Notes under the pieces: model-generated | The model's database searches: none | What the model saw: the letters and a program-made list of their open reading frames with translations, nothing else | Told to the model about the DNA's origin: nothing | Position numbers and translations under genes: made by a program | Source of the DNA: Amphiscolops sp. MND2022 | Lineage: Eukaryota | Reading direction: 5' to 3' | DNA length: 64,000 nucleotides | Assembly: GCA_964187785.1 (NCBI GenBank) | Contig: OZ076415.1 | Span: 60,698,001 to 60,762,000, forward strand | Part shown: positions 13,423 through 46,384 of the stretch, in pieces | How the letters are laid out: every line of letters starts with the position of its first letter | Numbering within the stretch: the stretch's first letter is position 1

Positions 13423-15310
<1,888 letters not shown>

Positions 15311-19575: not shown

Positions 19576-19704
19576 AACACAAAAGGGTATACCTAAGAGA
19601 CCAAAAAAGGGGGGTAGCGCAGACTAGGGGTATCTTACTGAAAAGCATGGAAACATGCGAAGAGCAGGACAGTCGTCCAGAGTTTTCAAATAGAGGGTGT
19701 ACAC

Positions 19705-24218: not shown

Positions 24219-24387
24219 CCCAGTCGTGGAAGGCCCTGTAAATCTGTATTGGTAGGGATTTCATTGTTTTTGACCGAACGACGAACGTGTTTGAGTGTCT
24301 CGTCGGCTCTCTGAGCATTGGCCATAGGACTGACTTGAATGTAATCAAGGGGCGTAGAACTAGCGGATGATTTGTGTGGCTCCATGA

Positions 24388-24770: not shown

Positions 24771-25800
24771 ATGCTCATTATCAATTTCAGTCCCAGGATT
24801 GATAGGACCAATGATCTCTGCAATTCTTGCGGCTCCTCGTTCAGCCCAGTCATCTGAGCATTCAGACTCGGTTTCTGAGGAGAAGTTTTCAGCTACACCA
24901 TTGACGGATGCTGGAGGGATCCGTGTTAGGCCATCGGCATGACCAATTTTCCCGGACGATGTCGGACGTCGTAGTCGAAAGCAGCTAATTTTCAATCCAA
25001 CGGGTGGTGATTACATCCGGATCTTTGAAGTCAATTGTCTGTTAGAATATTGACATTTTAAACGGAAAAGTGATTTTTTTTGAAGTTATATCAACGATAA
25101 AGAAAATTAGTTCGGTTTTCAAACCAAAACCACATAAATACAATTTATGCATTTTCTTCAAAATTGTATCTTGTCATTGGTTTTTGATGAAGAACTCTAG
25201 CACACTTTGTCAACACGTATTTGCTCTGCATAGCATTTTTTGGTAGATCCAACCATAGATCCCATATTGCGCGTTTTGATATCCATTAACGGCATCTCAT
25301 ACATAATACTGTAAGCAGGAGATTGTGCTCGGAGATTTGAATCGTTGTATGACAGAATTCATTTGCGTTTGATAACTTGTAGACGGACTGAAAATTAGTT
25401 TCAATCGTTACGGCAAAACGACGGTCCAAAAACAGAAATTGCATTTCTCAACCATTTCTTGAAAATGTTTCCGAAGAAATCCCGGCACCCACAGAAGAAA
25501 ATTTTGTGACACCTGAAACAGATGGTAATCAGTTTTCATGTTTTTTTTTGAATGGAACTAGGAACTAGAGAAATTCCCAATGTTTCATCCAGGTTGTATT
25601 TTTTATTGAATATGTTGTAAAATATCATCGTGTAAAAAACTCAAGCTGGCTCACCTCACTTCAGGGTCAACGGGTGTTGTTTTGATCTGATTTTTACTGC
25701 TCCAAGAGATGTTTGTTTCTCATTTATAAATTTATATGCTCCTTGCACAACCGTCAGTTGATCGTTTTATATAAAAAGATCAAACACTTTTGGTGTTGTG

Positions 25801-25948
25801 AGTAGTCATAAAAGCAGGAACCCTGGGTCACTTTTGCTCCGTTTTCGTGAATGTGAACTAATTTGTACGGGGGGGGATTACCGTGAAATTAAGACTGTTG
25901 GTGTGGGGATATAACCTTGAAATTCAGACTGGTTTAAATGGGTGGGGC
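25801..25948 (+). repeat. Left terminal inverted repeat (148 bp)
   Basis: AGTAGTCATAAAAGCAGGAACCCTGGG...TTTAAATGGGTGGGGC. Confidence 0.95.
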
Positions 25949-26088
25949 ATTCATTAGTTACGGCGCTTAATATGGAAAATCTAGACGCTGGTGGTTTTAT
26001 GGTTGATTAGTTTTATGTACTGCGAGCATATGGTGATTGTAAAGTTGCTCTCCGCGGAAATATTTCAAGTGGTTTTTGTTTACAAATC

Positions 26089-26627
26089 TCATGTGGTTAT
26101 TGTTTGCAATTCTCAAGTGATCTTGAATTGTGTGTCAGGCAACTGGGTGAGGTCTCATCTTTTGATAAACCAAGTCGACAGCTTCTTTCTTATTTAATTT
26201 GTTACAGCTTTCATGTCATTGCACAAAAGCCCAAGAGTTGTTTCGCCCATGTGCAGATAATTTTTCAGATACTTTCAAATAGCAATCACAGCGATCAAAA
26301 CTCCAGAAAATCCAGCAGCCATTTTACCTGGAGCAAAAACAACAATTGCTTGGTAAGTGTTTAACTTATTATTTAAAAAAAACTGGACATTCTGCGAATT
26401 GACCGATCTTCACAATTCAAGTGATTTTGAAACGAATTAAGTACACCAATTCTTTTCAATCCTGAATTTCCTGATTCTGAATATTTCAGAGATAGCCAAA
26501 CATCGAAGATTATTGTGATTTCTATTCCAATTCAAAATTCCAACAATCAGTACAATGAATGAGAAAACGAAACGGACAAGAAGCAGCAACCAAAAAACAG
26601 CAACAACTCAAGCAAAACTAATACAGG
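26089..26627 (+). pseudogene. Intron-containing cargo gene relic next to left TIR
   Basis: ATG TGG TTA TTG TTT GCA ATT (MWLLFAIL, signal-peptide-like); donors G|GTGAGG (~26147), TG|GTAAGT (~26353), AG|GTTGGT (~26627); acceptors TTGTTACAG (~26208) and ATTTCAG (~26489); frameshifts prevent a clean protein. Confidence 0.4.
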
Positions 26628-26947
26628 TTGGTTATTTGCTTTGTCTAAATTCATGATTTATTAACTAGAGTAACCAAAAAAAACCAATACGAAAAACCTT
26701 GCTCCCAGTGCTTTCAATGACTTTCATGTTTATAGATCATCGCCACTGTTCAACATCAAAGAATGGTCAAGGAATACAATGAACCTGACAACTATGAGAC
26801 GCTACTACTCTCCAGTTAAGTCAAAGAAAACTTTGAGCAAACACTGCATTTAGAGCTATATCTCCTGCATACATTTATCAGAATATATATTTCGTATCCA
26901 CACACACGCAAAACTGAAAGTCTAATTAATAATTACGTTGGTCTAAA

Positions 26948-29053
26948 AGTCTAAATTTCCATAATATTTATAGAGCTATAAAATTTCTTTAACTTGTCTT
27001 TGAGTAAAAATGGTAGCATTCCAGTGCAACATACCTTGGGTAACCTCTGTCCAATTGAAAATTTGGTCTAAATTTCCGTCATTTTAGAGCTATAATATTT
27101 CTTTAACTTGTCTTGAGTAAAAATGGTAGCATTCCAGTGCAACATACCTTGGGTAACCTCTGTCCAATTGACAATTTGGTCTAAATTTCCGTCATTTTAG
27201 AGCTATAACATTTCTTTAACTTGTCTTTGAGTAAAAATGGCAGCATTCCAGTGCAACATACCTTGGGTAACCTCTGTCCAATTGACAATTTGGTCTAAAT
27301 TTCCGTAATTTTAGAGCTATAATATTTCTTTAACTTGTCTTTGAGTAAAAATGGCAGCATTCCAGTGCAACATACCTTGGGTAACCTCTGTCCAATTGAA
27401 AATTTGGTCTAAATTTCCGTCATTTCAGAGCTTTAATATTTCTTTAACTTGTCTTTGAGTAAAAATGGTAGCATTCCAGTGCAACATACCTTGGGTAACC
27501 TCTGTCCAATTGAAAATTTGGTCTAAATTTCCGTCATTTTAGAGCTATAATATTTCTTTAACTTGTCTTTGAGTAAAAATGGTAGCATTCCAGTGCAACA
27601 TACCTTGGGTAACCTCTGTCCAATTGACAATTTGGTCTAAATTTCCGTCATTTTAGAGCTATAATATTTCTTTAACTTGTCTATGAGTAAAAATGGCAGC
27701 ATTCCAGTGCAACATACCTTGGGTAACCTCTGTCCAATTGAAAATTTGGTCTAAATTTCCGTCATTTCAGAGCTTTAATATTTCTTTAACTTGTCTTTGA
27801 GTAAAAATGGTAGCATTCCAGTGCAACATACCTTGGGTAACCTCTGTCCAATTGAAAATTTGGTCTAAATTTCCGTCATTTTAGAGCTATAAAATTTCTT
27901 TAACTTGTCTTTGAGTAAAAATGGTAGCATTCCAGTGCAACATACTTTGGATAACCTCTGTCCAATTGACAATTTGGTCTAAATTTCCGTCATTTTAGAG
28001 CTATAATATTTCTTTAACTTGTCTTTGAGTAAAAATGGCAGCATTCCAGTGCAACATACCTTGGGTAACCTCTGTCCAATTGACAATTTGGTCTAAATTT
28101 CCGTCATTTTAGAGCTATAATATTTCTTTAACTTGTCTTTGAGTAAAAATGGCACCATTCCAGTGCAACATACCTTGGGTAACCTCTGTCCACTTGAAAA
28201 TTTGGTCTAAATTTCCGTCATTTTAGAGCTATAATATTTCTTTATTTTGTCTTTGAGTAAAAATGGTAGCATTCCAGTGCAACATACCTTGGGTAACCTC
28301 TGTCCAATTGACAATTTGGTCTAAATTTCCGTCATTTTAGAGCTATAATATTTCTTTAACTTGTCTTTGAGTAAAAATGGTAGCATTCCAGTGCAACATA
28401 CCTTGGGTAACCTCTGTCCAATTGACAATTTGGTCTAAATTTCCGTCATTTTAGAGCTATAATATTTCTTTAACTTGTCTTTGAGTAAAAATGGCAGCAT
28501 TCCAGTGCAACATACCTTGGGTAACCTCTGTCCAATTGACAATTTGGTCTAAATTTCCGTCATTTTAGAGCTATAATATTTCTTTAACTTGTCTTTGAGT
28601 AAAAATGGCAGCATTCCAGTGCAACATACCTTGGGTAACCTCTGTCCATTTAAAAATTTGGTCTAAATTTCCGTCATTTTAGAGCAATAATATTTCTTTA
28701 ACTTGTCTTTGAGTAAAAATGGCAGCATTCCAGTGCAACATACCTTGGGTAACCTCTGTCTATGTGAAAATTTAGTCTAAATTTCCGTCATTTTAGAGCT
28801 TTAATATTTCTTTACCTTGTCTTTGAGTAAAAATGGTAGCATTCCAGTGCAACATACCTTGGGTAACCTCTGTCCAATTGAAAATTTGGTCTAAATTTCC
28901 GTCATTTTAGAGCTATAATATTTCTTTAACTTGTCTTTGAGTAAAAATGGCAGCATTCCAGTGCAACATACCTTGGGTAACCTCTGTCCAATTGACAATT
29001 TGGTCTAAATTTCCGTCATTTTAGAGCTATATTATTTCTTTAACTCGTCTTTG
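26948..29053. repeat. Tandem array of a 114-bp unit, ~18.5 highly similar copies
   Basis: GGTCTAAATTTCCGTCATTTTAGAGC...GTCCAATTGAMAATTT recurs at 27065, 27178, 27292, 27406 ... 29002; stops in all six unspliced frames. Confidence 0.97.
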
Positions 29054-29135
29054 CTTTCAGCTTAGTGAGCTAAAGTTTTGTTCTTTGTATTTCATTAATT
29101 TATCGAAATGTTCACCTTTTTTTTAAAAAAAAAAG

Positions 29136-29308
29136 CTCCCATGATGTAGACACAATGTACTGGGTAAGACGGGCCTAACCCAGCCTGCACAGTACGAGTG
29201 TCTACTGGGTCTTAGTATTGGTTAACCTCTCTTGGAGCAGGTAGACCGTTAGTGCTCTACTCTTCAAGAAACGGGTCGAGGTTAATCAAAGACTCCAGTA
29301 GACACTCG
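29136..29308. ncRNA. Candidate structured RNA/hairpin element, copy 1
   Basis: 114-nt imperfect hairpin 29195-29308 (14-bp perfect outer stem CGAGTGTCTACTGG/CCAGTAGACACTCG, 10-nt loop); the first 110 nt are duplicated at 29987-30097. Transcription not shown. Confidence 0.5.
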
Positions 29309-29513
29309 AAATCTCCTGCACAAGTACTGATTCGATTCGATTCGATTCAAATCTTTACTTTTCTTCCTCTTCAGTTTAAATACCTCTTTACAGACTATAT
29401 GGCGGTATCACATGTAAATTATGCAATTTCTCTACGTGGCATGGAATGTCTTTTTTTTGGTAGTGGAGAGCTTGAGATTTTGAAAATTGTTTCTTTGAAA
29501 TCATATGTCCTGT

Positions 29514-29780
29514 TGTACTTCCATAGGGGATAAGTTCTGTCGGTTTGAAAAATTGTTGATTATGTCCAGCATTTTAGTGTTTTCTTTGTCTTTAACTCTC
29601 AAAATGACTTACTTTAGTGTACTTTCATGGGGACAACTTCTGTCGGTTTGAAAAATTGTTGATTATATCCAGCATTTTTGCTTTTTAAATGTCTTTAACT
29701 CAAAATGGCTTACTTTAGTGTACTTCCATAGGGGATAAGTTCTGTCGGTTTGAAAAATTGTTGATTATATCCACCATTTT
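29514..29780. repeat. ~102-bp tandem repeat, ~2.7 copies
   Basis: TGTACTTCCATAGGGGATAAGTTCTGTCGGTTTGAAAAATTGTTGATTAT starts at 29514, 29618, 29719. Confidence 0.9.
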
Positions 29781-29986
29781 TGTTTTTAAATGTTTTGAGT
29801 AATATTTTAAGGGATCTTCTAAGTTCGATTGAAAAAAATATTGTTTATTTGTGACATTTTGGTGAATAGTTTGTCTTTGTCGCATAAAATGGTTTTGTTT
29901 AGTATACTTCCGTTTTTGTCGATTTTTCTTCCGATTCCTTGTGCAAATTTTGTCTTCCTCTCATTTGCTATTTGGTAATTTCACTA

Positions 29987-30159
29987 CTCCCATGATGTAG
30001 ACACAATGTACTGGGTAAGACGGGCCTAACCCAGCCTGCACAGTACGAGTGTCTACTGGGGTCTTAGTATTGGTTAACCTCTCTTGGAGCAGGTAGATTG
30101 AGCAAATTCTACTCTCCATTGTTGAGTTGAGATTAACCAAAGAGACTCCGGTAGACACT
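29987..30159. ncRNA. Candidate structured RNA/hairpin element, copy 2
   Basis: 5' 111 nt identical to copy 1 except one extra G; diverged 3' arm still pairs (CCGGTAGACACT, GAGATTAACCAA, TCTACTCTCC); 10-nt loop. Confidence 0.5.
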
Positions 30160-32820
30160 TTATAAACGAGAATACAGCCAAGGTCGTATTTTCAAAGTAA
30201 TACGACCTGTATACTTTAGCTCTTTTTTTGGAGCTTCTTACAGTCTTCTTGTTTCCGTTTCAAAATTTCTAGGACTTATTGTACAACTGTCGTTTCGAAA
30301 TTCGATGGACTATACAAAGAATTCAAGGACCCTTCGCTCTACAGGAACGAGTAGTCCTCTGTCTGGTTTCTGTTGAATTGTACTTCAACTAGAAAAATTC
30401 AGCCCTCCCTCTCCAGGATGTGATGCTAATATCTCGCTGTAATAATTGTTGTATTGCGTTGGAGTGAATTATGTCGAGTTTTCTATCTCAGGTATTGTTT
30501 CAATTTCGTATTTCAATTGAATCAATTTGATTGTTGGTGTTTTCAGCATCTGCAACTTGATTCCGGAAAACTTTTGAGATCAATTAGTGTACTTAGCTTT
30601 GTTTTTACTTTATCCTCAATTACCAACTTATGCAGATTGTTGCATTTTCGCGTTGGAATAGATACCACTGTGATTATTGATGTTTTTCAACCTCATCTTT
30701 GATTTTCTAGACGAAACTTCCTAAAAGTGAACAGATATCGAGTAAAACCAGACTTTTCAGCTGTACAGGTTGAACTTGTTCTGTTGAGTAGTAACAGACT
30801 ACTACTCAATATCTTTCAACTTTTTCCCACTTGAATTAGCTCCCAGCTCTTCACTATGTGACGTGGAACTCAAACTCTTCATTTGAAGACACTTCGCAAC
30901 ATTAGCAGGAGAGGTTATTAATTATTGAAATTTTGTAATAGACACCAGTTTGACTGATGATATTCATTTTTGGAACAGACGAACATAATCTCAGTTGCGA
31001 ACAATCAAGTACTGCATCCGATAAACGTCATCAATTTCATGCTTTGCTCCATCATGGGCGTTTTTGACAATGTCTATGCATTGTTTGTTGGTATTTTGTA
31101 TAGGAATAGACAGGATTGTTTTTTTATTGTCAACCTTGAAGTTGCGCGCGAGGCACTAGTTTATGAATTTTAACTGAATTTTGACTGTACTGTTGCAATG
31201 AAGAGAATATACCAATGTGAGTGTTGCTTCATCTTTCAGTTATTACTTTTGGAGGCAAATCGGAGATTACTTTTTTTTGTGGAAAACGGACCTTTCCGCA
31301 ATACTCAAAGCACCAAATAGTAGAATTATGTAACGTATTAAACAGCAGGCTGACTGTCGATGTTTTTTTATTGTTCGGTTGCTTTTGATATGGAATGGTT
31401 GAATGCAATCCTTATGCACTCTACTTCTCCACGGTTGAATCAAGGTAAATAAATTAGCTTTTACTTTATTTCCATGGTTTCAATTTGAAAATTTTTGAAA
31501 TTTCGTGGTGGAACAAGTATCACTGTGAATTCTTTTGTTTTGAAAAACGTTCTGAATTACATTTTCTAATCAATCTGATAACAGTCTTTTCTTCAACTGG
31601 TAATATTTACCTCGAACGAACTGAATATCTGATAATTACTGGTAGTTGTAAAAGGTATCAAAATAGTCATTAGGTTTTGACTTATTAATTGTTAGGTAAC
31701 GTTGAAACAGCACTTCAAGTAGTTGGCAGTTCACCTATAAGCCTTCTTGACTTTGATTTGCAACGTTTTATTTCAGAGAAGAAGTGAAAAAAACAGCATT
31801 GCTAGTTAGAGATTTTTTCGCCTGAAAGTGGTTTGGAAACATTGGACTCAATGGATACACATCTTTCCAACTGATGTTCATCTGAAATCCTTTCAAATGC
31901 CTGTCTAATGTAAACACTCGTTCAACTATTTATTTTGAAATTGCTCTATTTTGATGTTTATGTTTGAAGCATTGATTTTGATTTTCAAAAATTATCCATT
32001 ATGCAGTGTACTTGTGATTTCTTTCGGTACTGACTCTAAGACGTGAAGGAAGTATGTTATCTTTTTGGTAGTAATAATCCGTTAGCAACATTAGGTCTTT
32101 TTTTGTTGTTGTTTTCAACTGGATACATCAATCTCTGAGATTGACTCTTAACTGGCAAAACAATTTGTCAATAAGATCATGGGTTCACCTTGTTTCCCTC
32201 ATATGTCATTTCCAAAATAAATAAGTACGATTCGATGAAAAAAATTTCAAACGACAGTTTTCCTATTTTTTTTGTAAACCCACCACGGTCACAACCTTCT
32301 AAAGTTTTCCTGAACAAGTTCCACACCAATTTTGATTGACACCACTCTTGACTGTCGAAAATCTGAGAATTGGATGGAATTCTCGTATACATTTTGAATT
32401 GCAGCAACATTCAATTTTCACACTACAATACAATAAAATTTTAAAAACTATCAGTAGTTTTACAAGATGAAGGTTTCAAAAAGTTTTCAAATTGCGTTGA
32501 TAGAGATGCTCAAAAAATGTTCAAGATAATCCTGATTTCTAGAGTTTTCAACAATATTTTCGAGTGACAAGACCAACAACCTATGAACTGATTACAAAGA
32601 TTGTCTCGAAAAAGTATGCGTGTGTGTGGATTCCACTTAATATATTATGTTGCTTGTTTTAATAGTTTTTATTCATCAATTTTAGACAGTATTGAAGTTT
32701 AATGTAATTAGCATCGGAAGTTAAATTTACTTCTTGTAGTCTTTCGGTTTTGAAAAGTAATAAAGGAATACTAAATTGGCCAGACATTAAAGTTTAAGTT
32801 TCATAAAACAAATTAAAAAG

Positions 32821-35800
32821 TTAGGCTTCTTGAGCTTCAAACATGATGAATGGGTTTTTTCGCGCTCGTTTTGGCGGTGAGTACACTTGTTCGTCGTCGG
32901 GCGTGTCAGACGATAGGAAACCTGGGTCAGGTATATCTTCTTTCTCGCTCTCTGTGCTTCTTTTATATGACACAACAAAGTGCTTCTCGTCCATTGATAT
33001 CGTTGGATCAACTAAAATCTCTGGCAATATACTTTTTGGCGATGAGTGGGGTATTTCATAATGCCCAAAAGCTAGGGTTTCATTCACATCTTCTTCAATG
33101 TATCGCTTGTTATCAGCACTGTTCAAAACAATTTTGTTGCATTCCTCAACAAAAAGCTCCAAGTTGTGAGACTTGATTGTTCGCATTTTCTCTTTGATCG
33201 TTAGCTTTTCAGACAGGACTCTTTTGTATAGATCGTGATGGAGAGCTTTCTGTACTATCTTCGTAACACCTTTTGCACACTTTTTGGATTTTACTGATGA
33301 TTTGATGCTGTACATTTTTGCTCTCAGTCCGACATACTCGCTGATGATTCCACTATTCATCTCGTCTTTCATCTTCAGTACTACTTTCTTGTTTTTATCG
33401 CAGTGCAAAGGGTGATCGTTTGGATAATCTGAAAAGTCAAACTCGTCCTGGATTTTTTGAAAGTCTTCGTACAAATTTTCCGTCTCAATTGCTAACAAAA
33501 GCGAGTCTGTGTCTGAGTAGAGAAGTTTCGCCTTGTCCCCATAAGTTGGTTTTATTGTTTGGTAGAGAAATTTGTACATAACCAACTTGGACAAATCCAA
33601 AACTGTAGCTCCAATGTATGTAGGTTTGTTCCAGGTTACTATCGACTTACCCATAATCAAAGCACATAGATTCGGTTGAAAAATTTTAAAAGATTTGAAG
33701 TTGGGTTTGCTAATAAACTTTTCACAATGGGTGTCATCTGTGAAAAGCTTTATATTTTGACGATTCGTCAAATCTTCCATGGATTTCCCAAAAACTGAAT
33801 TGTTTAACAATTTTCCGAGATCTTTCAAACAATCAGTTTTTGCTTTACGCCGAATTTCTGTGTTGATGTCAATAATATCATTTCATCCATTTGCTCTGCC
33901 TAAATTTGATAACTTTATGAACTTTTACCACTTGTAACCCATGAGAAACGTAAAATTTCAAAATCCTGTAGTGGCACACGTAATATTCCTTTGTGTTAAA
34001 TGTTTGCAAAAGCTTGAATGTTTCCCCTGATTCACACTTTTCTCGTGCTTGTGAAGGTGAGAGCATTTCTTTTGTTATTTTTAAATGCTCTGGTGCCAAT
34101 GGATAATCATTGTGTTGATCATGTAATTCTTTTGAATATTCCAAATCAACAACAACGAAAAATCCAAATTCAGCATCGTCAGCAGTTGCTAATACAGTTG
34201 CAAGAGAATCCGTTGTTTCTGAAAAGTTGCCAATGGGTAAACTTTCACGCATTACTCCTCCATAGAGATTATTAGCGTCTAATAAAATCATGCAGGTTTT
34301 TGGCTCTGTTGCGTTATAATTTTCACATTGTGGATTATTCGCTTTGAAAAATCTACTGTGAAAAACACCACATATTCCACCCCTGATTCCTCTCTTCACA
34401 AAATCAAGATGGTCTTTTTCTGATAATAAATCCAATTCAACCTTTGTTGTTTTGAGCATTGCTTCCCATGCAAAATGAGGAGCTGTAAGAAAGTGTGCTG
34501 GGTCCAGACCAAAATTGCTGTAAGCCAGTTGTCGAAAGTTCTCAAATACGTCGGCTAGGGTGTAAACATCAACTTGAAGATAAATATCATGATATTCCCC
34601 CAGATTTTTTATACCTAGGCAATGCCACACCTTTTTAGCGTGCTGGTAGTCTTGATCCGATATCGGTTCATTGGATAAAGTGTCAATCCAGATGGGGGGA
34701 AGTTCGGTTTCTTGGAACTTGTCAAATGAGTCCATATAGCTATAAGGGTAAACTCCTTTCTGAAGAATTAGATTTTGCTGATCTTGTGAGAAATGACTGA
34801 AACCTTCTTTGAAGGTAGTAAAGGGAATATTATCAGTCTTCATTGTTTCAATAAGGCTGCTCAATGACTTTGCTTGGAATCGGAAACCATCAATAAACTT
34901 GAGCTTTTCAAATGTAATTACCTTTTGATTTTGGTCATTCTGGAAAGACCCTGTTGGTACACAAATTGAAAAGCAGATGAATTCTTCAGAGTTGTTTGCA
35001 ATGCACTCTAGTTTTTCGTTACCGTCTCCAGGTCGATAATACCTCAGAAGTTGCTTAAAATCATACTTTGAGACATTGTGAAAAATAACTGGAGTGAAAT
35101 TTGGTGTTCTGCATGATATGTTACATTTACTATGGGCTATGCCTCGCAGTTTACCGGTAACATGATTATGCTCAAAAACCCTGTCGTTTCCGAGTGTTTC
35201 GTCACAAATAGAACAATCAACAGCATCTCTCAACTTTGTAAAATCACTAGTTTTCTTTTGGTAAAAAGGAAATCTTCTCTTGTCTCGATATATTTCTTTA
35301 GCCCAATTTCGAACCGTGTCCAAAAAACCTGTGACACAGCCCTCACTCCGACTGGAATATTGCTTTATCAGTTTCCCTTTTTCATTTAAGCATATTGCAT
35401 GAATGCCACAAGGTATTTGTTTTTCAACTTTTCGTGCATGTAATTGGTTGGGTGTGTAGGTAATTTTTGGTGTGATGGCCTCTATGTCTGCATAAATAAC
35501 AAACGGGGCTCGCATTCTTGCTGCAAAACTTTTCCAAGCCATCTTACCATTTTGTTTCATCTTTATTCGGCAAGGTTGTTCAGAACACATGAGTTGATGA
35601 TTCTTGAAGCGACTCAAGCTTGAACTTCCAGTCAAACAACGTCGACAGTAAAATTGATTCTTTTTCTTTGTTTCTCTTCGCATAAACCAATTGAAATTTG
35701 TAATTAAACAGTAGTGATAACGACCATCGTCCTCAAGTAGCAATAAATCCACCGGAAATCCATTTTTGTTGGAAATACGAATAGGATAAATTTCCTTATC

Positions 35801-36622
35801 CAGAGCAAAAACATTAATTGATAAATCATTAGCTCCTTCAATCCTGCCAATGTCTTTAATTGTCACAGGATTCTCCGCGTCACATAAGTCAATTTTTTGA
35901 AACTTTTCATATGTGCTAGGACGACTCTTCTTGTTTTTTATATCGCGATAATGTCTTGCTGCGAGAATACAAAGCTCAAAACAGTTATTTGCCTTGATTG
36001 TTCGGATATTAAGCAAGAAGTTATTGTTTGAAAACTTGGTTGGTGTTGGTATAAAGCTTCCAGCTCTGATGGGCTTGTTTCGAGCGAAATTAATACTCAA
36101 TTTCAAAATCTTCTTAACACTCCATCCAGAGCCATGCTGACAGAAGTTTTCAAACTGTTTCAGAATGTGATTTTTAATTTGGTCGAATGTTTCTCTCGAG
36201 AGACCCTCTGAATAAACAGCTTGCATTTTTGAGTTGAAACAAGTCTCAAATTCCAATTCAGTAGTTGGTTTGAATAATAAAACACACAAGGATAATTGGA
36301 TTTTCAAACTAGTTGCCTCTTGTAAGTTTTTGATAATTAATGAATAGAGGTTCGGATAGAAGTTATTTAGGAAAACAATGGGATCGAGGATTGTATTTTT
36401 TGGTTTAAAAGAGATAACTTTCAAGTAATTTCGCGTGGTATTCTCTTCAAAATCATAATCATCGCTGTCAGTTGTGTTCTCTCTTGTTGTTTCTGAGTTG
36501 GTTTGAGAATTTGACTCACGGTCGTTCGAATGATCTCTGTGTTTTTGGCGTACGTGTCTGTTCAGATTTTGCTTGTGTTTGTAACATTTTAAGCAAGTTT
36601 CACAACAAAATTTTCTCTCCAT
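32821..36622 (-). CDS. polB: Protein-primed family B DNA polymerase (Polinton type), one frameshift at ~33875
   Basis: Exonuclease motifs YADIEA, FHNVSKYDF, YLQVDV; polymerase motifs LLDANNLYG, KLLNNSVFGK, YSDTDS, KMYS..KCAKGV. N-terminal C2H2 finger CETC..HVRQKH and EndoVII-like CSIC..EHNHVTGKLRGIAHSKCN. The two ORFs join with a 1-nt shift at AAATGATATTATTGAC (KWMK / IDINTEIRRK). Confidence 0.95.
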
Positions 36623-36799
36623 AATGGAGGAGCGACTGGAAGGGTAGAATATACAACTTGTATTTGCAACAAAAGTTTTCAGTCTGTTTTTCAGAAAAAT
36701 TCATTAGGTATTGGTCAAAATGTTGGAAAGTTGGGATAGCCACTTCCTATTGGTCGCAATATTAAATATGTTTCCCTGTTGCGATCTTAATCACATGGA

Positions 36800-38720
36800 G
36801 TTTACAATCATTCATGTTTCAAGTCATTCTGTGAATTTCTTGTAGTTTTTCCGAAAAATTCTGTTCTTGACCTCAGAGAAGTTGTTTCTACTGAAAATTA
36901 AATACTAGGGAAGTCATATATAAATTATTTGTTATTTGTTTAGGTATAGTTTTAGTTGTAGTTATAGTTAAGCTATTTTTGACCACAGAAAGTGACCTCT
37001 TGAAAAGGCCTAGATGACTAGCAAGTTTCAGTTAAGGTGAAGTTTTTCTTAAACTCAAGAAGTTGTTTTTCTCTGGACCTTAGAAAGATACAAAACACGT
37101 AGTGAATTTCGATTTAACTTTGAGTCTCAAGACATTACTCATGTTCATAGTTATTCTTATAATCTTTAACCTCAGGAAAGTAATCTTCTTTTGAAATAGA
37201 AAACGAAATAGAAGCGATATTCAATTCAAATATTGAGTCTTGATTGATTAGTTTCATGATTTGCTCGTGAAGGTTATAAACAAAGTCATTGACAACATAC
37301 CTTCGTTAGTTATAAATCATAAATTATTGAATTTCAACACTTTGTTTCACGATTGAATTGGAACGAAAGCTTTATTACACTAAAACCAATCAAAGGCATA
37401 GACTTTTGATTCATTTTTTCGAAGCATCTAACACATGCTTTAGGAAACGCTCAAGGAGTTCAAGTAATTAGGGCAAGCTTCATGGCATAGATGATTATTC
37501 CATATTCACTTTTTACACTCTCTACCAACTGGAAACATAGGCTCCAAAGAGCTTGTTCGTGTCCTTGTAAGTTGTCTCCATCCACATAATATTGGATTGG
37601 GGTTACTGTCGTTGATGAGTTCAATCTTGGGACAACAAAATCGAATTTTGCTTTAACAGGAGGGGCGGATGAGAAAAAACGTTTGAGTTGCTCTTGAATT
37701 GTCACTGTCCAAACGAAGGCTCCACTATTCGATTTTCTGGCAATTTCTTGAAAGTATCGGGAATAAAAACTGCAGGATCCATATAAAAAAATTATGTAGT
37801 ACCTGAAGCAACATATGTAAAAGACAAATTGCGACTTGGGTGAGATACTTGAAACAGTTTAAAAATCGAGTTTTTTACTTACTTGATATCTGAGTCAATA
37901 GTCGTTGCTTCTATAGTTTCTTTTACTTCCAAAAGTGTGGTCTTCCTTGTTAAACCACCATCGATATTTCCCTCCACCATTACCATCTCGTCTTGAACTA
38001 GGTATTGACCAAACAGTTTTGTGTTGTTGCTTGTAAACGTCATTTTGAAGCGTTTCGAAGATTTTGAAATAAAACCGGATTTTCCGAAGAAGAAGTAACA
38101 ATAAAGTGAATCTGATAGTTGGTTGGCTTTCTTGAAATGGTATAGGGGAAAAATTACAATGACTGGAATATTTGTTAGACAACACCTTTCTATTGGCCAT
38201 ATTTCAGTGTTAGTCTTTTCTTTCATTCAAGCACAACTTGTAATATTCTCTCAGATATCATCAATTTCTATAACCTTCAATAACAAACTGTGAATAATTT
38301 CTTTTGTTAGTATTCTTGGGTATTCATTTCAAATTTGAAACATTCCATCTTTGATTATTCATACAACAAAGTCCATAACTATTCTGACAGATTATTGCAA
38401 TTAGATCACTCAATTCTTTCAACTCGTCAGCAAAACCGTCATTATCGGAAACAAATACGCTGTATAAAGAGGGTTTATTGGTTGTCCTGTTGTTACATTT
38501 TCCACCATAGTCCATTTAAGTTTTGCACCTTAAACATGTTGAAATTTAATGAAATATTAGATTTTAAAAAAATCGTTCTTTCAAATTACCTGTTTTGTTT
38601 GGAAACAATTCAGAAACATCAATTAACCACCACTGGAATCCAAAAGTTACTCATAAATTGTTCGAGGCATTCTTTGAAATTGTCACTGTCTGTTCGTTGG
38701 TATATAATAAGATACCTGTA
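36800..38720 (-). pseudogene. Intron-containing cargo gene relic between right TIR and pPolB, product unidentified
   Basis: Exon-like open segments (38324-38515, 37879-38226, 37460-37740) with a clear donor ATCAA|GTAAGT at ~37881, ACAG|GTAATT at ~38590 and acceptors AAATTACAG and TTTTCAG; premature stops. Confidence 0.45.
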
Positions 38721-38970
38721 ATTTTGTTGTTAATGAAAAAGTATACATATCACTTCTTGTAATAACTAGATATAACAACCTGAAGTTTTCACTTGGCTTT
38801 TGAACATATATTGAAACAATCAACTCCTGGAGTGTAGCTTCCCGTATCATTTAATCACAACTCCATAAATCATAGTATTTGAAGTACGGAAATGTTTGCT
38901 AAAACTCATATTAAGGGAGTGCTAGGGTGGAAACAGTATTAATTGTTATACATTTTACAAAAGAATTCAG

Positions 38971-39261
38971 ATGCAATTCCATAACTTGAAGTGGTTTTCA
39001 CTATACTTGAAGAAAATCTTCACTATAATAGCTGTAGAGATTCATGAAAAGGATCTACTTTTATTAACTTTAACCGAAAGTGGTGGCGATGTCACGATTA
39101 CTCTCGAATTTATGTCCCCCGCGTGGATTGAGTTAACACTTTATTTTCACCATCACAAGAGTCTGAAGGCAGTCCCTCGAAGCGAAAAATTACGTTATCT
39201 TTTTATGCGGAAGCGACTTACAGATCTCTTTGAAACCCAGAAACCTCCTTTCATGGATTGA
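38971..39261 (+). CDS. Small hypothetical protein inside right end of the Maverick
   Basis: 96-aa ATG-started ORF; no motif recognised. Confidence 0.3.
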   Translation: MQFHNLKWFSLYLKKIFTIIAVEIHEKDLLLLTLTESGGDVTITLEFMSPAWIELTLYFHHHKSLKAVPRSEKLRYLFMRKRLTDLFETQKPPFMD

Positions 39262-39540
39262 GTGTTTCTCAAAATTATATTCCAAATTAACCTCAGAAAC
39301 GAATTTCTCGCCGTTAGTTAACATCTTGACTCAATTATTTAACCAAGCTCTTGAAGTCACTCGATAATAACTTCTTTGATATTGAAAATATTGAGAAGAC
39401 GCGGCGCACCCTCTTTATTGACACACAAGTCAAACCTTTACGATTTTTAAACAAGAACCACTTGAGAATTCGCCCCAGCGCAAGTGGTAAAAATAACAAA
39501 TGGCACTGTACACATAAAAGCCCACGACGCGAGTAATAAA

Positions 39541-39688
39541 GCCACACCCATTTAAACCAGTCTGAATTTCAAGGTTATATCCCCACACCAACAGTCCTAA
39601 TTTCACGGTAATCCCCCCCCGTATAAATTAGTTCACATTCACGAAAACGGAGCAAAAGTGACCCAGGGTTCCTACTTTTATGACTACT
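39541..39688 (-). repeat. Right terminal inverted repeat (148 bp)
   Basis: Reverse complement of 25801-25948 with 4 substitutions; followed by TSD GTTGTG. Confidence 0.95.
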
Positions 39689-42579
39689 GTTGTGGTCATT
39701 GAATTTGTTCGTTTTCTAATTTTTTGGTTCTAATTCGATAACTTAAGTGATATGAATAGGCAAATTTAAGAACCGAGTGAATTGTTTTCTTGCAGGGTTT
39801 CTTGTAACCTCTTCTTTCTCAAAAGTCTAACTGATTGACTATTAGAATGTTTCGCTCAAGTCCTGGTGAAGAGCTTACCCTTCAAACTCTGGATATATGG
39901 AATTAATTGTATATTGCCTTCAATGGTAGTACAGCCACCAAGTTTTACAGGATTAAAACGTACATACCTTATTCAGCTAGCCTTCCATAAATTGTAGTTA
40001 CCTGATTAATCCATTTAAATTTGTTCAACCAATGATAAACGATTGAATCATTTTGAGTTTTGTGCAGTAAATTTTCCCTTAAAGAAGGGAATTGCTATTC
40101 TCCTTTGAAAAACAAGAAAGTTTATTGAACCCATTTTCTCGAAGTTGAATTTTCCAAAATCGTCTCCCACATCCGCGCGCTAGTTTGAAAATCGATCCGA
40201 ACAGCCAATTTCGAGAAAACCGACACTTTTGTTGAATTTAGACTTTTTTGAAAATTGTAAATTGAGTTAATTATGTCTTCATTGGAGGTTGCCATAGTCC
40301 AACGGACATTACCAATCGATTCTGCATCTTCTGCATTACCAAAAGGTGATATTTTTATGGTTCCGTCTTTTTATGTCTTTAAAAAAGGCAAGAAGCGTAT
40401 GTTAGAAATGACCATTTTCTTGTACACTACGCGGTTTTTTGAAACTTACTCGTCTGGTCAAAACATGTAAGCCTTTTCAGATTTGTGTTTCATTTGGATC
40501 TTTTGAAAGCTGAATAGTTTGTTTGAAACTCTTGTCTAGAAGTTGTAACGTTCCAAATACGGTGTTAGGTGATTTTTTGTTAGTTATTTGAATGTCTCAA
40601 GTTCCGGTCTTTTGATGAGTTTCTTTTCTAATGAATGCACTTTCTCCACTATTGGTGTCAATGATGGTTGATACGTATCGTTGCGCGTGCCGTCTGGCGT
40701 TTTGGATTTCTTCTCACCCGAATCGGTACTTGCTTCATCTGGAGGTTGTGGTGATAGCAATTCTGGTTTTTCCCAGACTCCAAAAACCTTCCATTCAGTC
40801 CATCACTCTCCCGACTCATTTGAATAGGAGTGATGGGAATAATTGAGCATTAGCGTTCGCACATCATGTCTTCGATGATGATTGGTAGCATTGGAATATG
40901 AGAATGATGAACTTCTCCGACTTCCCAATCCTCATGTAAATCACTCCAATCAAAGACACAGTCCAGCTTCCGTTTCTTCTGCAGAACGTTACTTGCTCGT
41001 AACGATAGTTTGGCACTTTTGTTGATTACAACGTTGGGTAGCAAAATTTCTTTTTGGCTTCTCACTTCAACGCTGTATTTGTGTGTCAATTTTCATCTTG
41101 GTTTCTTCCCTCTGCTGCTCAATGGTGCAAAATTGCTGCTCATTTTTGAAATTGTGTCTCGTAAAACGTAAGTCTCTGAGACGTGAAAAGTGTCAAAACT
41201 GTAGCCATTGCTGCGAAGCTTGCTCAATTTCAGTGAAAGTTTCCATTAAACTGAATCAAGTTTTCTGTTTCTGTCGTTTGTTGAAGAATTGCTAGGTCAC
41301 AAAGCGGAACCGTCTTTGATGACACTTGTAAACCAAGTGCTCATTTATTAGGTAATATAAATTGTTTTTTTTTAATAGAAGAACTTTTACTACAAAGAAC
41401 CAACTCAGGTGCTGCTTTGTCAGTTTTTTACAGAATTGCATGATTTTCAATATAAAAAACATTTACCATAGAGACAATTCCGCAAACAGTGTGGTAAAAC
41501 AATCAGGTAGACTAATCAAACGATACTTCCCAAGAAGCACTAAATTTCACCCGGGCAATATCAAGTGCCTTCTCATTTCAAGATTTTGTTTTTCGCGTTC
41601 AAAATGTCCTTTTCTAGTGACTTCGCTGTGACAAAAAATGGGAAGTTTTGCGATTTTCATTACAACATTTTCCACTCTTCAACCATACTTGTTCAAGCTA
41701 GAAAAAAAACCTATGAAAGAGTGAACCTACACTTTTCTGAAGTTAGTCAGAAAAAAGCCTGACGACGAATTTATACTTGCACAGAAAATCAACTCGACGG
41801 AGAAGAGTTTGAAAAGTTGCTTTTGGGGGGAAACTCAATTTCACAACCACCAGGTAACTCGACAAAGGGAGCAAGCAAAGTTGAGAAGGTGAAGAAATCT
41901 TCAGCAATCTCTATCAAATCAGGAGAGGAATTTAACGACGAAAATAAGGAGATCATTGACACCATAAAACATGATGGAGGCCATGTTTGAGAGGTCTTCT
42001 GATTAATTCAAACTATTCAGAAAGAGTTTTTGATTTTTCATATTCAACAGAAAACATAAAACTGGAGTTGATTATTTTGTAAAATGTGATTTTTCGATTA
42101 GTTTACTTTCACCCGCGCATGAAGGATTATGTAACATTCAAGCAGACAATAACTATCACGTTCTTGCTCAAAGTTTTGAAGAGAACCAGACAAAGGTTCA
42201 ACCTAACAGTTGTTTGATACCGTGCATTCATACTACTTACCTTCTAATGAGAAGTGTATGGTGACGTTTTCGGGCAATTGGATCAAGCAATTCAACAGAA
42301 TGAAGATTTTTTTACTTCGAGCAGGAAACCCCAAACAGTTTTTGCCTTCTGTTTATTTGCCAGTGTAGAAATTTCACAAGACAGTACAAGTCAATTCAGG
42401 ACTGAGTCAAACAAGAATGCGTTTGGAAAGTAGTATGTTCGGTCCCAATGGTGGACATCTTCTCTTCATCGCAGGTTTTTCTCAAACTAGTCAAATAACG
42501 TTTCCTTCGAATGAAAATAATTGAAAACCTAAAATTGAATAATTACTAGTCCTTTTACAAAGAACAGGAAGTCAGTTTA

Positions 42580-42975
42580 AGTATTTGAGGAAGTTTTTGT
42601 ATGATGAATACTAAACAAAATGTCAGCAATATAAACACAAAATATACAACGAGTTTGACTTTCGACTTTGTAAGGGCTTGCGAGAATCATCTTTCAAAGC
42701 GCGTAGAAATGTCAATGTTGGCGGCAAAAGTCTCTTGGCAATATTTGAGTATAGAGACAACAAGTCCAAGCCGAGGGGGTCTACAAATTTGTATTCACCT
42801 TTCACATTGCTCCACGTGACCCAGTGTCTACCAATGCAAGTTGAACTTTGCGAGTTAACCACAATAGACGTATTGGAAAATCCTTTGCTGGATAAAAACC
42901 TTCAAATCTAATTTTGAGACGCAAAGAGTTTTGAATTTGCTGAAAGAGGTGAATTTCACCCAATTTTATGTCGTC
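42580..42975 (-). pseudogene. Adenain-like cysteine protease of a Polinton/adintovirus
   Basis: RFEGFYPAKDFP..VNSQSSTCIGRHWV..KFVDPLG..PLQSRKSNS..IFCVY (His, Asp, Gln conserved; frameshift at the catalytic Cys region). Confidence 0.85.
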
Positions 42976-42979
42976 AGAT

Positions 42980-43716
42980 TCAGAATAACGTTTTTGGATT
43001 TCTCTCGATTTTAACAATATACACAATTGAACCTCTTTCTCCCACGAGAAAAACCTCAGTGTTCTCAGTAAAGGCCACTAGAATTTTTGGTTCAAAAGAA
43101 ATGGCAACATTGGTGGTGAGTCTCTTCAACAACAATCAGAAAATGAACACTGTAATCACTGAAAGGAATTCCATGTCCATGATAACCAAAGTCAAGAGCA
43201 TCAATTGTTGATAAGTACACACGTTCCTCATCATCTGTCGGCAATGGTGTTCTTGCTATAGGACATCAACTCCGATACACAAATCTCGTTCAAATTATGT
43301 TTCTGATAATGGAAAAGATTTAAATGTTTCGATCCGATAAACGCTTGATTCCAAATTAAAGCAAATGCAAAGCGTCAGAAGGGTTCTTTGCTAAATACAT
43401 CTTCTTTGTTTCGATTTCGGATACTTGTGGAAATGAGAAAAGTTAGCTTCGAAACACCAAATTGCCAGTACAGTGCAGGTGTTTCTGTCAGAGGTTTTTC
43501 TACGATAGTACTTACTTGATCAGATACAGTCCTTTTGCGATTAAAAAATTTGGTTTGAGTTAATTCAGTTGTGTACTTTTTTGCAGCATCGTCGTAAGTC
43601 ACACAAACTCGGACTTGTATCTCGCAAAGGAAATGCGCAAAGTAACTCGACTGAGCAAACATTTGTCTCATGAGAGAACATCTGATGCAATTTTACCGAA
43701 ATAGGTCAACTCTTCT
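42980..43716 (-). pseudogene. Polinton major capsid protein, C-terminal two-thirds
   Basis: YFGKIASDVLS..LLSRVTLRI; DVFSKEP..FAFALIWNQAFIGSKHLNLFHYQKHNL; TPLPTDDEERVYLSTIDALDFGYHGHGIPFSDYSVHFL; ENTEVFLVGERGSIVYI, resembling the Polinton double-jelly-roll MCP; stops and frameshifts. Confidence 0.75.
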
Positions 43717-43882
43717 TTACTTGCGTTTTCTTTTGGTTTTTTCGACCGTTTTTTTGTGCAAGTTTTTTTGTGCAAGCTACGCTACCAATTCCTATTGCTA
43801 ATGCTCCAATGCTACAGCCTCGCTGTCTAATATAACTTTTAAAATGTGGTAACTACTCTTGTCTTACATATTACTCATCCAT
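43705..43882 (-). pseudogene. Small basic Polinton core-like protein (QRGxG motif family)
   Basis: MDE*YVRQE*LPHFKSYIRQRGCSIGALAIGIGSVA followed by a Lys/Arg-rich tail; lies between minor and major capsid genes. Confidence 0.55.
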
Positions 43883-43883
43883 C

Positions 43884-44653
43884 ATGCAACGTTTTTGGAA
43901 CTACTTTCCCTTCTCAACAAATGAAACAAGATTTCAGATTTTAGTTGAAAACAAATTGTTTCATTGCTTTGAACCAACAGTTTTCTGTACAACATATTTA
44001 AAAATGATCTTGTCTGAAGCGTTGCAAAGTCAAGACCTTTCCAAACTCTATGCGTTTCCCACTATCTACTAGTGGTAGTTCAGGAGTTTTCACATCTCCA
44101 GTATTCTGGTTATCAACCAGGTGTGTGTAAACAGAAACAACGTCATTCCGGAAAATATTCCATGAGGATGCCATTAGCCAGTAAATCATAACCAGTAAGT
44201 TTGGTATGTTTCTGGTCAGAAACGTCAAATCAGCAATTGCATCAACTTTGATTTCATCTTTGCCATCTCGTCTTTGTATTTTACTATCCTCAAGCGGCAT
44301 TGAAAGACGCTTAGGTATTCCAAAAAGTGACGTTTGAATACTGTCATACTCTATGTCTTTTAGAGGCTATTTTTGATAGTAAAGTACAATTTTTTTCCTG
44401 GTCTTTCTCAGTCTTACTTTCTTCTTCAGAGCTCTCACTGACGTCATTTTTGTTTGCTTTTCATGAACATAATAGAAAAATTTGAGTAAATATTTTTTGA
44501 GATGGGAAAATAAATTCCTTCCGATAGCGCCACACTCCAATCACTTACCAAGGAAATATTTCGAGGTAGCTAGTTTTTTAATGGTGCTTGTGTATTGTCC
44601 TCAAAAATACCCATCGAGTCAGTGGATAATAAATGTGTTTCAAATTCGTCCAG
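43884..44653 (-). pseudogene. Polinton minor capsid protein (penton)
   Basis: N-terminus EFETHLLSTDSMGIFEDNT..LPRNISLVSDWSVALSE; C-terminus VSVYTHLVDNQNTGDVKTP..DSGKRI; frameshifted. Confidence 0.75.
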
Positions 44654-44654
44654 T

Positions 44655-45480
44655 TTTCCGAACCAAAACCACTTTTTGTTGGTAATCTTTCCCCAGTAGT
44701 TTTTTCCGTGAGAGTCGTGTAGGTTGTACGAAGGAGAATAGAGGGTAGCAATTTGTAGCATTTATCGATTTGAAGAACTTCGTCTTTGTAATTTGGCTTG
44801 TAGCCTTTTGTTAAGAAAACTGGATGACAAGAGCAGTGTGCTTCTTTCCGAACTTTTTTGCTGCCAAACCAGTCACTGTTGACACGTGAAATATAAACAA
44901 ACCAAAATCATTAAGATTGTTGGTAGAATATTAGGTACACTTTTCTTCCAAGCGCTTGTGAAGGATGTTTTTTAGCAAACGAATGTTGCGCTCAGCAAAA
45001 GCAGACTTTGTTGCATGGTGAGTTTTGTAGTTTTCAACTCCTTTAGTTTCATAAAACTGCTTGAACTGCCCATTGAATTTTGTCGTTGTCGGACCAAATT
45101 TTTTCGGGTATATCTTTGGAAATCAATCGTTTAAATGCCCAAATTGTGTCGGAGGGCGTTTTCGTTTTCTATGGTTGAACTCGTAAAAATCAGGAGCGGA
45201 CATCTACTGTAACTGGTAATTATTTACTCCATTATTGATTTTGGCTATTTTATCCAGGCAGGCAATATCTTTTGACCAAACTTCTTTGATTCCGTGGGCT
45301 TGAATTTTGAGTCGAGAAAGTTCTTTTCTAGGCGTCTGGTATTTCGTATGGGCATCCATTTGGGTCAAAAAACTTTCCACCGTCGTTGATGACAATCTGC
45401 GTGCGGTACACAGCCATATGCAGCTGCACCTTGTGTGTAAAGGTTTTCCAATGTGTTTTTTTCATCTCTCGAGATTAGTG
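44655..45480 (-). pseudogene. Polinton retroviral-like (c-int) integrase
   Basis: LENLYTQGAAAYG..VESFL..AHTKY..EVWSKDIACLDKIAKINNGV..KSAFAERNIRLLKNIL..KGYKPNYKDE..SPSYNLHD; many frameshifts. Confidence 0.88.
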
Positions 45481-45488
45481 CACTCTTC

Positions 45489-46046
45489 CTAAGCTTTGCT
45501 TTTAGCACCTTCTTTAGATTCTGTGTTGTGGGATTCTGATTCAATTTCAGGGGGACTTCTTTTCTTTCTTGTCGTCACTGTACTAGGTTTCAAAAAACTT
45601 TTGGCTATTTTATTGGGTATCAAGTCAATGTTCAATTTCAAATTCTTCAGGGAAACTGAAAAAGAAAGATCAGTCAAGTTTTTATCAGTTGTTGTAGGTT
45701 GTTGAGAAATGTTGAGAGAGGACTTTTTGTGGGGTTTTTGGTTGACTATTGTTTCACCAAAGTCGTTAGAATCAACAGGATCGAAAGCTTCAATGGAGCT
45801 CCAAATCTTTCTACTTTTTTGTTTTTGGGCCGCTGTAAGCATATCTAATTTTTTCAAAACTGCTTCTTCGGAAATTGTCTCTCGCGGTTGTATCGTTACA
45901 GTGTCTGGAAAGGTTTTGTCTTTTTTGAATAAAGTCAGTGGTTTGGCTTTTTGCTCCACTTCTGGATCTCTCAAAACTTGTAAAGTTGAATAGGTGTTTT
46001 TGAGTGGAGAATTTTTTGGGTACAAAATGAACTCCTGGGTGTTCAA
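45489..46046 (-). CDS. Uncharacterised ORF (185 aa) between ATPase and integrase of the decayed Polinton
   Basis: Co-oriented ORF MNTQEFILYPK...; assigned by position only. Confidence 0.5.
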   Translation of the reverse strand: MNTQEFILYPKNSPLKNTYSTLQVLRDPEVEQKAKPLTLFKKDKTFPDTVTIQPRETISEEAVLKKLDMLTAAQKQKSRKIWSSIEAFDPVDSNDFGETIVNQKPHKKSSLNISQQPTTTDKNLTDLSFSVSLKNLKLNIDLIPNKIAKSFLKPSTVTTRKKRSPPEIESESHNTESKEGAKSKA

Positions 46047-46384
46047 TACAAAAACCTTTTGGTAGATACAAGAAACAAGGACGAGAACTCAAAATCAACA
46101 GGTTGAGACTTTTCTAGGACATCTGAATTTTTCTACGCGTCTAGTTGGATGTCAATTTTTTACAGACTTGTTTGAGTTGTGGCTTGCAAAACATAGGCTC
46201 ACCCAAATTGACTGGTACTGTACCGTTTACAATATTGATTGCGTATTCACAACAAAATTTTTGAAAATCTATGTCATAGTGCTCTTAAAAATATTGTTGC
46301 CTAATTGAAGTGAATTGATTCAAAAACATGAGTATGTGCAAACCTTTCGTTCTCTTTGTCAATCTCTGTAACTTAAGCTTATGA

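What the first reader, a model, noticed from the sequence alone, without database searches (positions are those of the whole stretch)
25801..39688. Complete TIR/TSD-bounded Maverick that keeps pPolB but lacks integrase, ATPase, protease and capsids, and is filled with cargo
Seen: AGTAGT termini, 148-bp TIRs with only 4 mismatches and a perfect 6-bp TSD show a real integrase-type insertion. The only recognisable core gene inside is a near-intact pPolB. The rest is tandem arrays, structured hairpins and intron-bearing gene relics. Established: autonomous Polintons encode pPolB, INT, ATPase, PRO and capsids. Inference: a self-replicating but integration- and packaging-dependent satellite (linear-plasmid-like cargo vector) mobilised in trans.
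Basis: partly seen in the sequence, partly recalled or inferred. Interest (0 to 1): 0.75.

Follow-up and report, generated by a model that had tools for sequence, protein, structure and literature searches.

The report
Polymerase-only Maverick inside older Maverick
A recently inserted virus-like transposon kept its DNA polymerase gene but carries none of the genes for integrating or packaging itself, so it either borrowed those functions from a helper copy or lost them after it landed.

Summary
The anatomy is confirmed. The 13.9-kb element has 148-bp TIRs (4 mismatches), a perfect GTTGTG TSD and a Maverick pPolB. No INT, ATPase, protease or capsid gene was found inside it.

(1) This copy's pPolB is frameshifted between polymerase motifs A and B and has 7 private substitutions, so it probably cannot replicate now. 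A 98%-identical relative (56-member cluster) reads through.
(2) The element landed inside an exon of a decayed paralogue of its own intron-bearing 'cargo' gene (gene X).
(3) That paralogue adjoins an older Maverick fossil with integrase (tool-supported) and probable ATPase, capsid and protease relics. At least part of the cargo therefore looks like inherited accessory DNA, and one block deletion would explain the layout.

Best reading (0.55): a deletion-derived non-autonomous Maverick, self-copied by its pPolB and integrated by a helper INT in trans. Main rival (0.32): a one-off deletion after insertion. Other copies could not be fetched, so the deciding test is open. There is no evidence for a plasmid-like phase or for packaging dependence.

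The parts
25795..25800 (.). left 6-bp TSD GTTGTG
25801..25948 (+). left TIR, AGTAGT end
26065..26162 (+). sub-terminal sequence with weak inverted similarity to 39395-39471 (possible older, longer TIR)
   Evidence: blastn E 0.001; nhmmer E 0.012
26489..26589 (+). decayed coding-like segment sharing a short repeated peptide motif with the middle region (weak)
   Evidence: nhmmer E 0.015 to 30694-30628; tblastx
26949..29053 (.). 114-bp tandem array, 18.4 copies; 16 copies differ from their majority unit by 2.1%
29136..29306 (+). structured unit 1: small stem plus about 115-nt hairpin
   Evidence: z -5.6; no Rfam match
29514..29793 (.). 103-bp tandem array, related to the 114-bp unit
   Evidence: 0 of 1000 shuffles reach the score (43 vs max 42)
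29987..30159 (+). structured unit 2: first about 111 nt near-identical to unit 1, 3' arm diverged but still paired
   Evidence: 1 of 55 pairs changed on both sides
30200..32800 (-). non-coding or decayed middle region with weak internal repeats; no ORF over about 90 aa
32821..33882 (-). pPolB C-terminal ORF (motifs B, C)
   Evidence: 350 of 350 aa identical to P0004
33878..36622 (-). pPolB N-terminal ORF: C2H2-like start (by eye), exonuclease motifs, endonuclease VII insert, motif A; frame changes at its 3' end
37460..38530 (-). intron-bearing gene X relic: last exon 37769-37460, GT-AG intron 37882-37770, exon 38112-37883, broken upstream exons; family unidentified
39541..39688 (-). right TIR
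39689..39694 (.). right 6-bp TSD GTTGTG
25180..25794 (-). insertion target, 3' part: decayed paralogue of gene X; homology starts at the TSD
   Evidence: nhmmer E 2.3e-7; both exons 0 of 1000 random segments, intron 539 of 1000
39695..40250 (-). insertion target, probable 5' part of the gene X paralogue (moderate support)
   Evidence: 2 of 300 for one length; 16-31 of 300 for four other lengths
42600..47000 (-). older Maverick fossil outside the element: ATPase-like (about 47000-46480), unknown ORF (46060-45480), integrase (45480-44620), minor capsid-like (44600-43980), major capsid-like (43850-43050), protease-like (42980-42600)
   Evidence: integrase: tblastn E 3e-11 with P0126, itself Pfam rve E 0.016; ATPase, minor capsid and protease by recalled motifs; major capsid by eye only

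Best explanation
A deletion-derived, non-autonomous Maverick. A full-length ancestor lost the contiguous ATPase-INT-capsid-protease block in one step and kept the TIRs, pPolB and accessory DNA. The shortened unit was then copied from its TIRs by protein-primed strand displacement. Its own pPolB is the likely copier, since polinton pPolBs carry the terminal-protein primer at the N-terminus (PMC11161782). A helper Maverick's integrase, acting on the AGTAGT ends, inserted it with a 6-bp TSD into the gene X paralogue of an older Maverick fossil. After insertion this copy began to decay. Shown: ends, TSD, gene content, target identity, decay. Inferred: the single-block deletion, its timing before insertion, self-copying and the helper. 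Capsids are not needed for movement within a genome, so packaging dependence is not part of the claim.
For: Clean TIR/TSD with no INT inside. The insertion is young: 7 window-private substitutions in 554 compared aa of the first ORF and none in 350 aa of the second, plus one frameshift, which leaves little time for a multi-kb deletion in place. The internal DNA looks older than the insertion: array copies differ by 2.1%, the hairpin 3' arms have diverged, and gene X is more broken than pPolB. pPolB belongs to a 56-member cluster, while two single-locus flank ORFs have 2 members each. The fossil's core genes form one same-strand block upstream of the gene X paralogue, so one deletion suffices. 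No half-gene remnants were found.
Against: No second copy was seen. The 56 members may all sit in canonical elements, and they may include fragments. One deletion after insertion gives the same map, and 96% of vertebrate Maverick loci are defective (PMC8097293, passages). This copy's pPolB is broken. No helper sharing the TIR is in the window. The age contrast is soft: TIR mismatch is 2.7%, close to the array's 2.1%, and the upstream exon model of gene X is uncertain.
Confidence: 0.55

Rival explanations
1. A one-off dead copy. A canonical, accessory-rich Maverick of roughly 18-21 kb inserted with its own integrase, then lost the core block by one deletion in the chromosome.
For: Only one deletion is needed, given the block layout in the fossil and in vertebrates (PMC8097293 passages). 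The restored length would fall inside the reported 12.7-24.6 kb range. 4 of the 7 private pPolB changes hit positions invariant in the outgroups that cover them, i.e. neutral decay. pPolB-plus-TIR loci without INT occur in C. elegans as remnants (10.1101/2024.01.15.575659 passages).
Against: The copy is very young, no truncated core gene is left, and about 70% of the length is non-coding or decayed, unlike the intact, intron-free Mavericks described for vertebrates.
Confidence: 0.32
2. The arrays, hairpins and middle region (about 26.9-32.8 kb) are a later nested insertion, for example a Helitron-like unit, that replaced or accompanied loss of core genes. The hairpins would then be unrelated to Maverick biology.
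For: Arrays, hairpins and gene fragments are typical Helitron content (recalled). A weak inverted similarity links 26879-26910 to 32649-32617 (E 0.05). A gene X homologue has a weak SSB/OB hit (P0130, E 0.022).
Against: No Rep/helicase or transposase signal and no nested ends identified. Gene X is tied to the Maverick fossil. This account does not explain the missing core block by itself.
Confidence: 0.08
3. The replicase segment of a split (bipartite) Maverick: pPolB-only and INT/capsid-only elements complement each other.
For: The adjacent fossil shows the other core genes and no detectable pPolB. Mobile polB-less polintons are reported in insects (10.1101/2025.02.07.637071 passages).
Against: The fossil is far older, shows no shared TIR, and is cut by a Gypsy relic about 150 bp past gene X, where pPolB would follow by analogy with the young element.
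Confidence: 0.05

Closest known systems
Canonical Polinton/Maverick (adintovirus)
   Same: AGT-repeat ends, TIR length in range, 6-bp TSD, pPolB, accessory DNA beside the core (PMC8097293 passages).
   Different: No INT, ATPase, capsid or protease gene; about 70% non-coding or decayed; has an intron-bearing gene.
C. elegans pPolB1-plus-TIR loci without INT (10.1101/2024.01.15.575659)
   Same: pPolB next to a TIR with no INT, at 10 loci (passages).
   Different: Described as remnants; the passages read do not report both TIRs plus a TSD. The figure itself was not seen.
Cargo-bearing nematode Mavericks (10.1101/2022.07.12.499685)
   Same: A 2-5 kb TIR-proximal region with intron-containing genes (passages).
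   Different: Those elements are largely complete and their cargo includes intact proteases and kinases; gene X is broken and unidentified.
polB-less polintons that stay mobile in insects (10.1101/2025.02.07.637071)
   Same: Loss of a core gene with intact TIRs and inferred mobility (passages).
   Different: Mirror image: they lose polB and keep the other hallmark genes.
Transpovirons and linear plasmids
   Same: A protein-primed-type replicase without a structural module (PMC11161782 passages).
   Different: Transpovirons use a pPolB-helicase fusion and parasitise giant viruses. This element is chromosomal with a TSD, and no free form is shown.
Short non-autonomous Polintons of Repbase (recalled; not found)
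   Same: TIR-bounded and dependent on a helper.
   Different: As recalled, they lack coding capacity; this one keeps a near-whole pPolB.

Membership tests
Polinton/Maverick (autonomous) | TIRs with AGT-repeat ends | tested here: met
Polinton/Maverick (autonomous) | 6-bp TSD | tested here: met
Polinton/Maverick (autonomous) | protein-primed DNA polymerase B gene | tested here: met
   5529 hits among 8000 candidates, motifs present; broken by one frameshift in this copy
Polinton/Maverick (autonomous) | retroviral-like integrase (required by definition, PMC5499653) | tested here: not met
   P0126 finds the flank fossil (E 3e-11) but nothing inside (best E 3.1 by tblastn, 0.07 by phmmer); no ORF over 136 aa
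Polinton/Maverick (autonomous) | packaging ATPase, protease, major and minor capsid genes | tested here: not met
   No ORF long enough and no motif or fossil-derived match. Very old relics cannot be excluded, since no curated capsid profile was available.
Non-autonomous Maverick family mobilised in trans | intact ends and TSD without own integrase | tested here: met
Non-autonomous Maverick family mobilised in trans | several insertions with the same deleted structure | not testable with these tools
   No eukaryotic contigs could be fetched and the cluster look-up could not be made; only indirect member counts
Non-autonomous Maverick family mobilised in trans | a helper sharing the TIR | tested here: inconclusive
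   None in the 64-kb window; rest of the genome not available
Linear plasmid / transpoviron | extrachromosomal linear DNA with terminal protein | not testable with these tools
   needs reads or bench work
PIWI/Argonaute (identity of gene X) | detectable PIWI domain | tested here: inconclusive
   Only Pfam Piwi E 0.073 on one upstream ORF. No support; only prokaryotic references were available.
OB-fold/SSB (identity of gene X) | OB-fold profile or structure match | tested here: inconclusive
   P0130 Pfam SSB E 0.022; model pLDDT 52, best Z 4.2, no OB hit at the top

The most novel reading that the evidence does not exclude
pPolB-only elements are a stable, amplifying class in this host: self-copying satellites, or one segment of a split Maverick whose partner carries INT and capsids. 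The freed space holds arrays, hairpin RNAs and an old intron-bearing accessory gene family, and insertion may favour related Maverick DNA.
Probability: 0.15. Interest if true: 0.8.

Novelty: new variant of a known kind. Interest (0 to 1): 0.45.

Why it matters
If the layout recurs, it would be a described-in-full animal Maverick satellite that keeps its replicase and outsources integration, the mirror of the mobile polB-less polintons. It would make two open points testable: whether the Maverick integrase works in trans, and whether the terminal-protein-bearing pPolB gives an advantage in cis. It would also model the step from polinton to capsid-less replicon. If it is a single copy, it is an ordinary defective Maverick, though it still shows an intron-bearing gene family shared by two Maverick insertions of very different age.

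Tried and rejected
Rfam: 0 matches at E up to 1 over 14,101 nt. ARAGORN: 0 genes.

PIWI identity for gene X was suggested by recalled motif resemblance and one weak Pfam hit. It was not supported by PDB sequence searches, PADLOC (0 of 7), Pfam, hhalign against five prokaryotic Argonautes (probability 0.1) or a local profile (419 of 1000 shuffles as good). The two 'Piwi domain' PDB rows align to the wrong end of those proteins and partly to intron. The flank paralogue does not keep the resembling residues. The idea was dropped to a weak lead.

ESM Atlas: no usable hit for the last exon; low recognition and scores of 0.80 or less for the middle ORF. Two AlphaFold models were low-confidence (pLDDT 50 and 52) and their fold searches uninformative. 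The search for longer relatives of the last exon found 0 of 36 candidates; plasmid tblastn gave 1 chance hit.

A second pPolB in the flanks was not found by a 40-sequence profile or by 120 homologues. Homology of gene X's 3' non-coding DNA to the flank was not significant (84 of 1000). Pfam, PHROGs and PDB did not name the fossil ATPase, capsid or protease; one search used the wrong frame. The pPolB tree is the quick tree only.

Not checked: other copies, empty-site alleles, cluster membership and host identity.

Full report
Observation. The element runs 25801-39688. Both ends begin AGTAGT, the arms differ at 4 of 148 positions, and GTTGTG flanks both sides. A 6-mer match by chance is of the order of 1 in several thousand (my estimate from base composition). 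No other TIR copy lies in the window. The host is an animal-type genome: a three-finger KLF-like gene with introns ends near 15.3 kb (name by recall) and LTR-retrotransposon pol regions lie at 18.5-25.0 and 56.7-61.4 kb. The host was not identified.

The polymerase. It runs 36622 to 32821 on the minus strand in two ORFs with one frame change near 33880. It has an endonuclease VII insert and all six recalled motif patterns, with motif A before the break and B and C after it. As assembled this copy cannot make a whole enzyme; an assembly error cannot be excluded. P0004 is 98.4% identical over 554 aa and 100% over 350 aa, reads through the break, and stands for 56 member sequences. The next relatives are 62-70% identical in the first ORF. 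Of 9 differences from P0004, 7 are private to the window and 4 of these hit positions invariant in the outgroups that cover them, which is neutral decay after a recent insertion. Two ORFs from the single-locus flank have 2 members each, so 56 suggests dozens of young copies. Their gene context is unknown.

Missing core genes. Pfam found no core-gene family in 18 read-through frames covering the non-polymerase DNA outside the 114-bp array. That negative is weak alone, because Pfam also missed the fossil next door. The right flank served as a positive control. On its minus strand a strict Walker A (46922), an integrase motif (44996), a minor-capsid motif (44539) and a protease motif (42832) occur in order, and none occurs inside the element; the protease pattern also occurred twice by chance in the left flank (motifs recalled). 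The integrase is tool-supported: P0126 matches at E 3e-11 and has a weak rve hit. The major capsid is by eye only. Using six fossil regions and four fossil homologues as queries, nothing credible lies inside; the best score (E 0.003) falls in the pPolB frame. A young element would also show co-resident genes as long ORFs, and the longest non-polymerase ORF is 136 aa. I conclude that INT, ATPase, protease and capsid genes are absent.

The filler. There is an 18.4-copy 114-bp array and a related 103-bp array. Two hairpin units were the two strongest of 170 windows scanned, of which 4 passed z -3; they have no Rfam match. Their first 111 nt are near-identical and their 3' arms diverged while still pairing, with only 1 of 55 pairs changed on both sides, so function is not shown. 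Weak repeats link 26.5 kb to 30.6-31.5 kb (E 0.005-0.03). The clearest relic, gene X, has a GT-AG intron at 37882-37770. Four of the five search hits are homologues of its middle exon at 97, 81, 65 and 59% identity; the fifth is a repeat artefact. Three of the four ORFs end at the same residue pair as the window's exon, as expected from a shared splice donor. The window copy is out of frame with P0127 near 38100. Its family is unidentified: PIWI and OB-fold leads were tested without support.

New finding: the target. The left flank is a decayed paralogue of gene X. The last exon matches 25251-25520 (nhmmer E 2.3e-7). The 3' part of the middle exon matches from the TSD outward. Both exons beat 1000 of 1000 random segments while the intron does not (539 of 1000). 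Identity by codon position is 20, 32 and 17 of 43, a coding signature. The upstream part probably continues in the right flank, but support is only moderate: 2 of 300 at one length, 16-31 of 300 at four others, and the 85 bp next to the TSD were not significant. The element therefore inserted into an exon of a relative of the gene it carries, and that relative lies about 2.3 kb downstream of the fossil's protease-like gene on the same strand. The simplest inference is that gene X is an old accessory gene of this host's Mavericks and the target is the fossil's accessory region. A host multigene family with a lucky insertion is the alternative. By analogy the order would be core block, gene X, pPolB, so one deletion between the right TIR and gene X would give the present map. 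The fossil is cut by an LTR-retrotransposon relic at about 25030, where its pPolB would follow; none was found.

Mechanism. Most likely (0.55) the deletion came first. The shortened unit was copied from its TIRs by pPolB, whose N-terminus carries the primer domain in polintons (PMC11161782, passages; not tested on this protein), and was integrated by a helper integrase. For: youth of the copy, older-looking internal DNA, no half-genes, and a large pPolB family. Against: no second copy, no helper, and soft age estimates. A one-off deletion after insertion (0.32) fits the map equally well. A nested Helitron-like insert (0.08) and a split genome (0.05) are less likely. Packaging dependence and a plasmid phase have no evidence.

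Comparison with print. I read passages only (term-find output) of PMC8097293, PMC11161782, PMC8502044, PMC6431247, PMC5499653, PMC13215967, 10.1101/2024.01.15.575659, 10.1101/2022.07.12.499685, 10.1101/2025.02.07.637071, 10.1101/2023.08.22.554363 and 10.64898/2026.10.13.758929. Known there: INT-less pPolB-plus-TIR loci in C. elegans, intron-bearing Maverick cargo, and mobile polB-less polintons. Searches did not surface a TIR/TSD-complete pPolB-only family. The library lacks most subscription papers and Repbase reports, and I saw no figures or supplements; the C. elegans Extended Data Fig. 6 may bear on this. Short non-autonomous Polintons are recalled only.

Verdict. The element is real and well bounded. 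It is not an autonomous Polinton by the integrase criterion and is best filed as a new variant of defective or non-autonomous Mavericks. Interest is 0.45, rising to about 0.8 if the layout recurs at other loci.

Noticed in passing
window 42600-47000 (-): Heavily decayed second Maverick core block (ATPase-like, unknown ORF, integrase, minor and major capsid-like, protease-like) with no pPolB or matching TIR found.
   Followed up: partly
window 25180-25794 and 39695-40250 (-): The insertion target is a decayed paralogue of the element's own intron-bearing gene X.
   Followed up: yes
window 40250-40850 (-): Long, once-coding-looking stretch leading into the gene X paralogue; no Pfam hit.
   Followed up: partly
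window 11200-15300 (+): Intron-containing host gene ending in three C2H2 fingers, KLF-like (name recalled).
   Followed up: partly
window 18466-25030 (-): Frameshifted LTR-retrotransposon pol relic (integrase domains) with long downstream ORFs; it stops abruptly near 25030 against the gene X paralogue.
   Followed up: partly
window 56674-61355 (+): LTR retrotransposon with long RT, RNase H and integrase ORFs.
   Followed up: no
window 7425-8093: 15-bp repeat arrays in inverted orientation about 500 bp apart, MITE-like.
   Followed up: no
window 8771-9935: Degenerate inverted repeat pair (70% over 159 nt), probably an old DNA transposon.
   Followed up: no
window 6395-6629: G-rich 22-23 bp tandem array, about 10 copies.
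   Followed up: no
window 48700-50300: GC-richer segment of unknown origin just upstream of the Maverick fossil; no useful Pfam hit.
   Followed up: partly
window 52900-53500 (+): By eye a decayed non-LTR reverse transcriptase fragment (recalled resemblance, translations).
   Followed up: no
window 29152-29159, 29201-29208, 29299-29306: In hairpin unit 1 the 8-mer GTGTCTAC has a complementary partner on each side, so two alternative folds are possible; unit 2 has the same arrangement.
   Followed up: partly
window 33881-36619 vs P0004: All 9 amino-acid differences from P0004 fall before the frameshift and none in the 350 aa after it; possible recombination or conversion.
   Followed up: no
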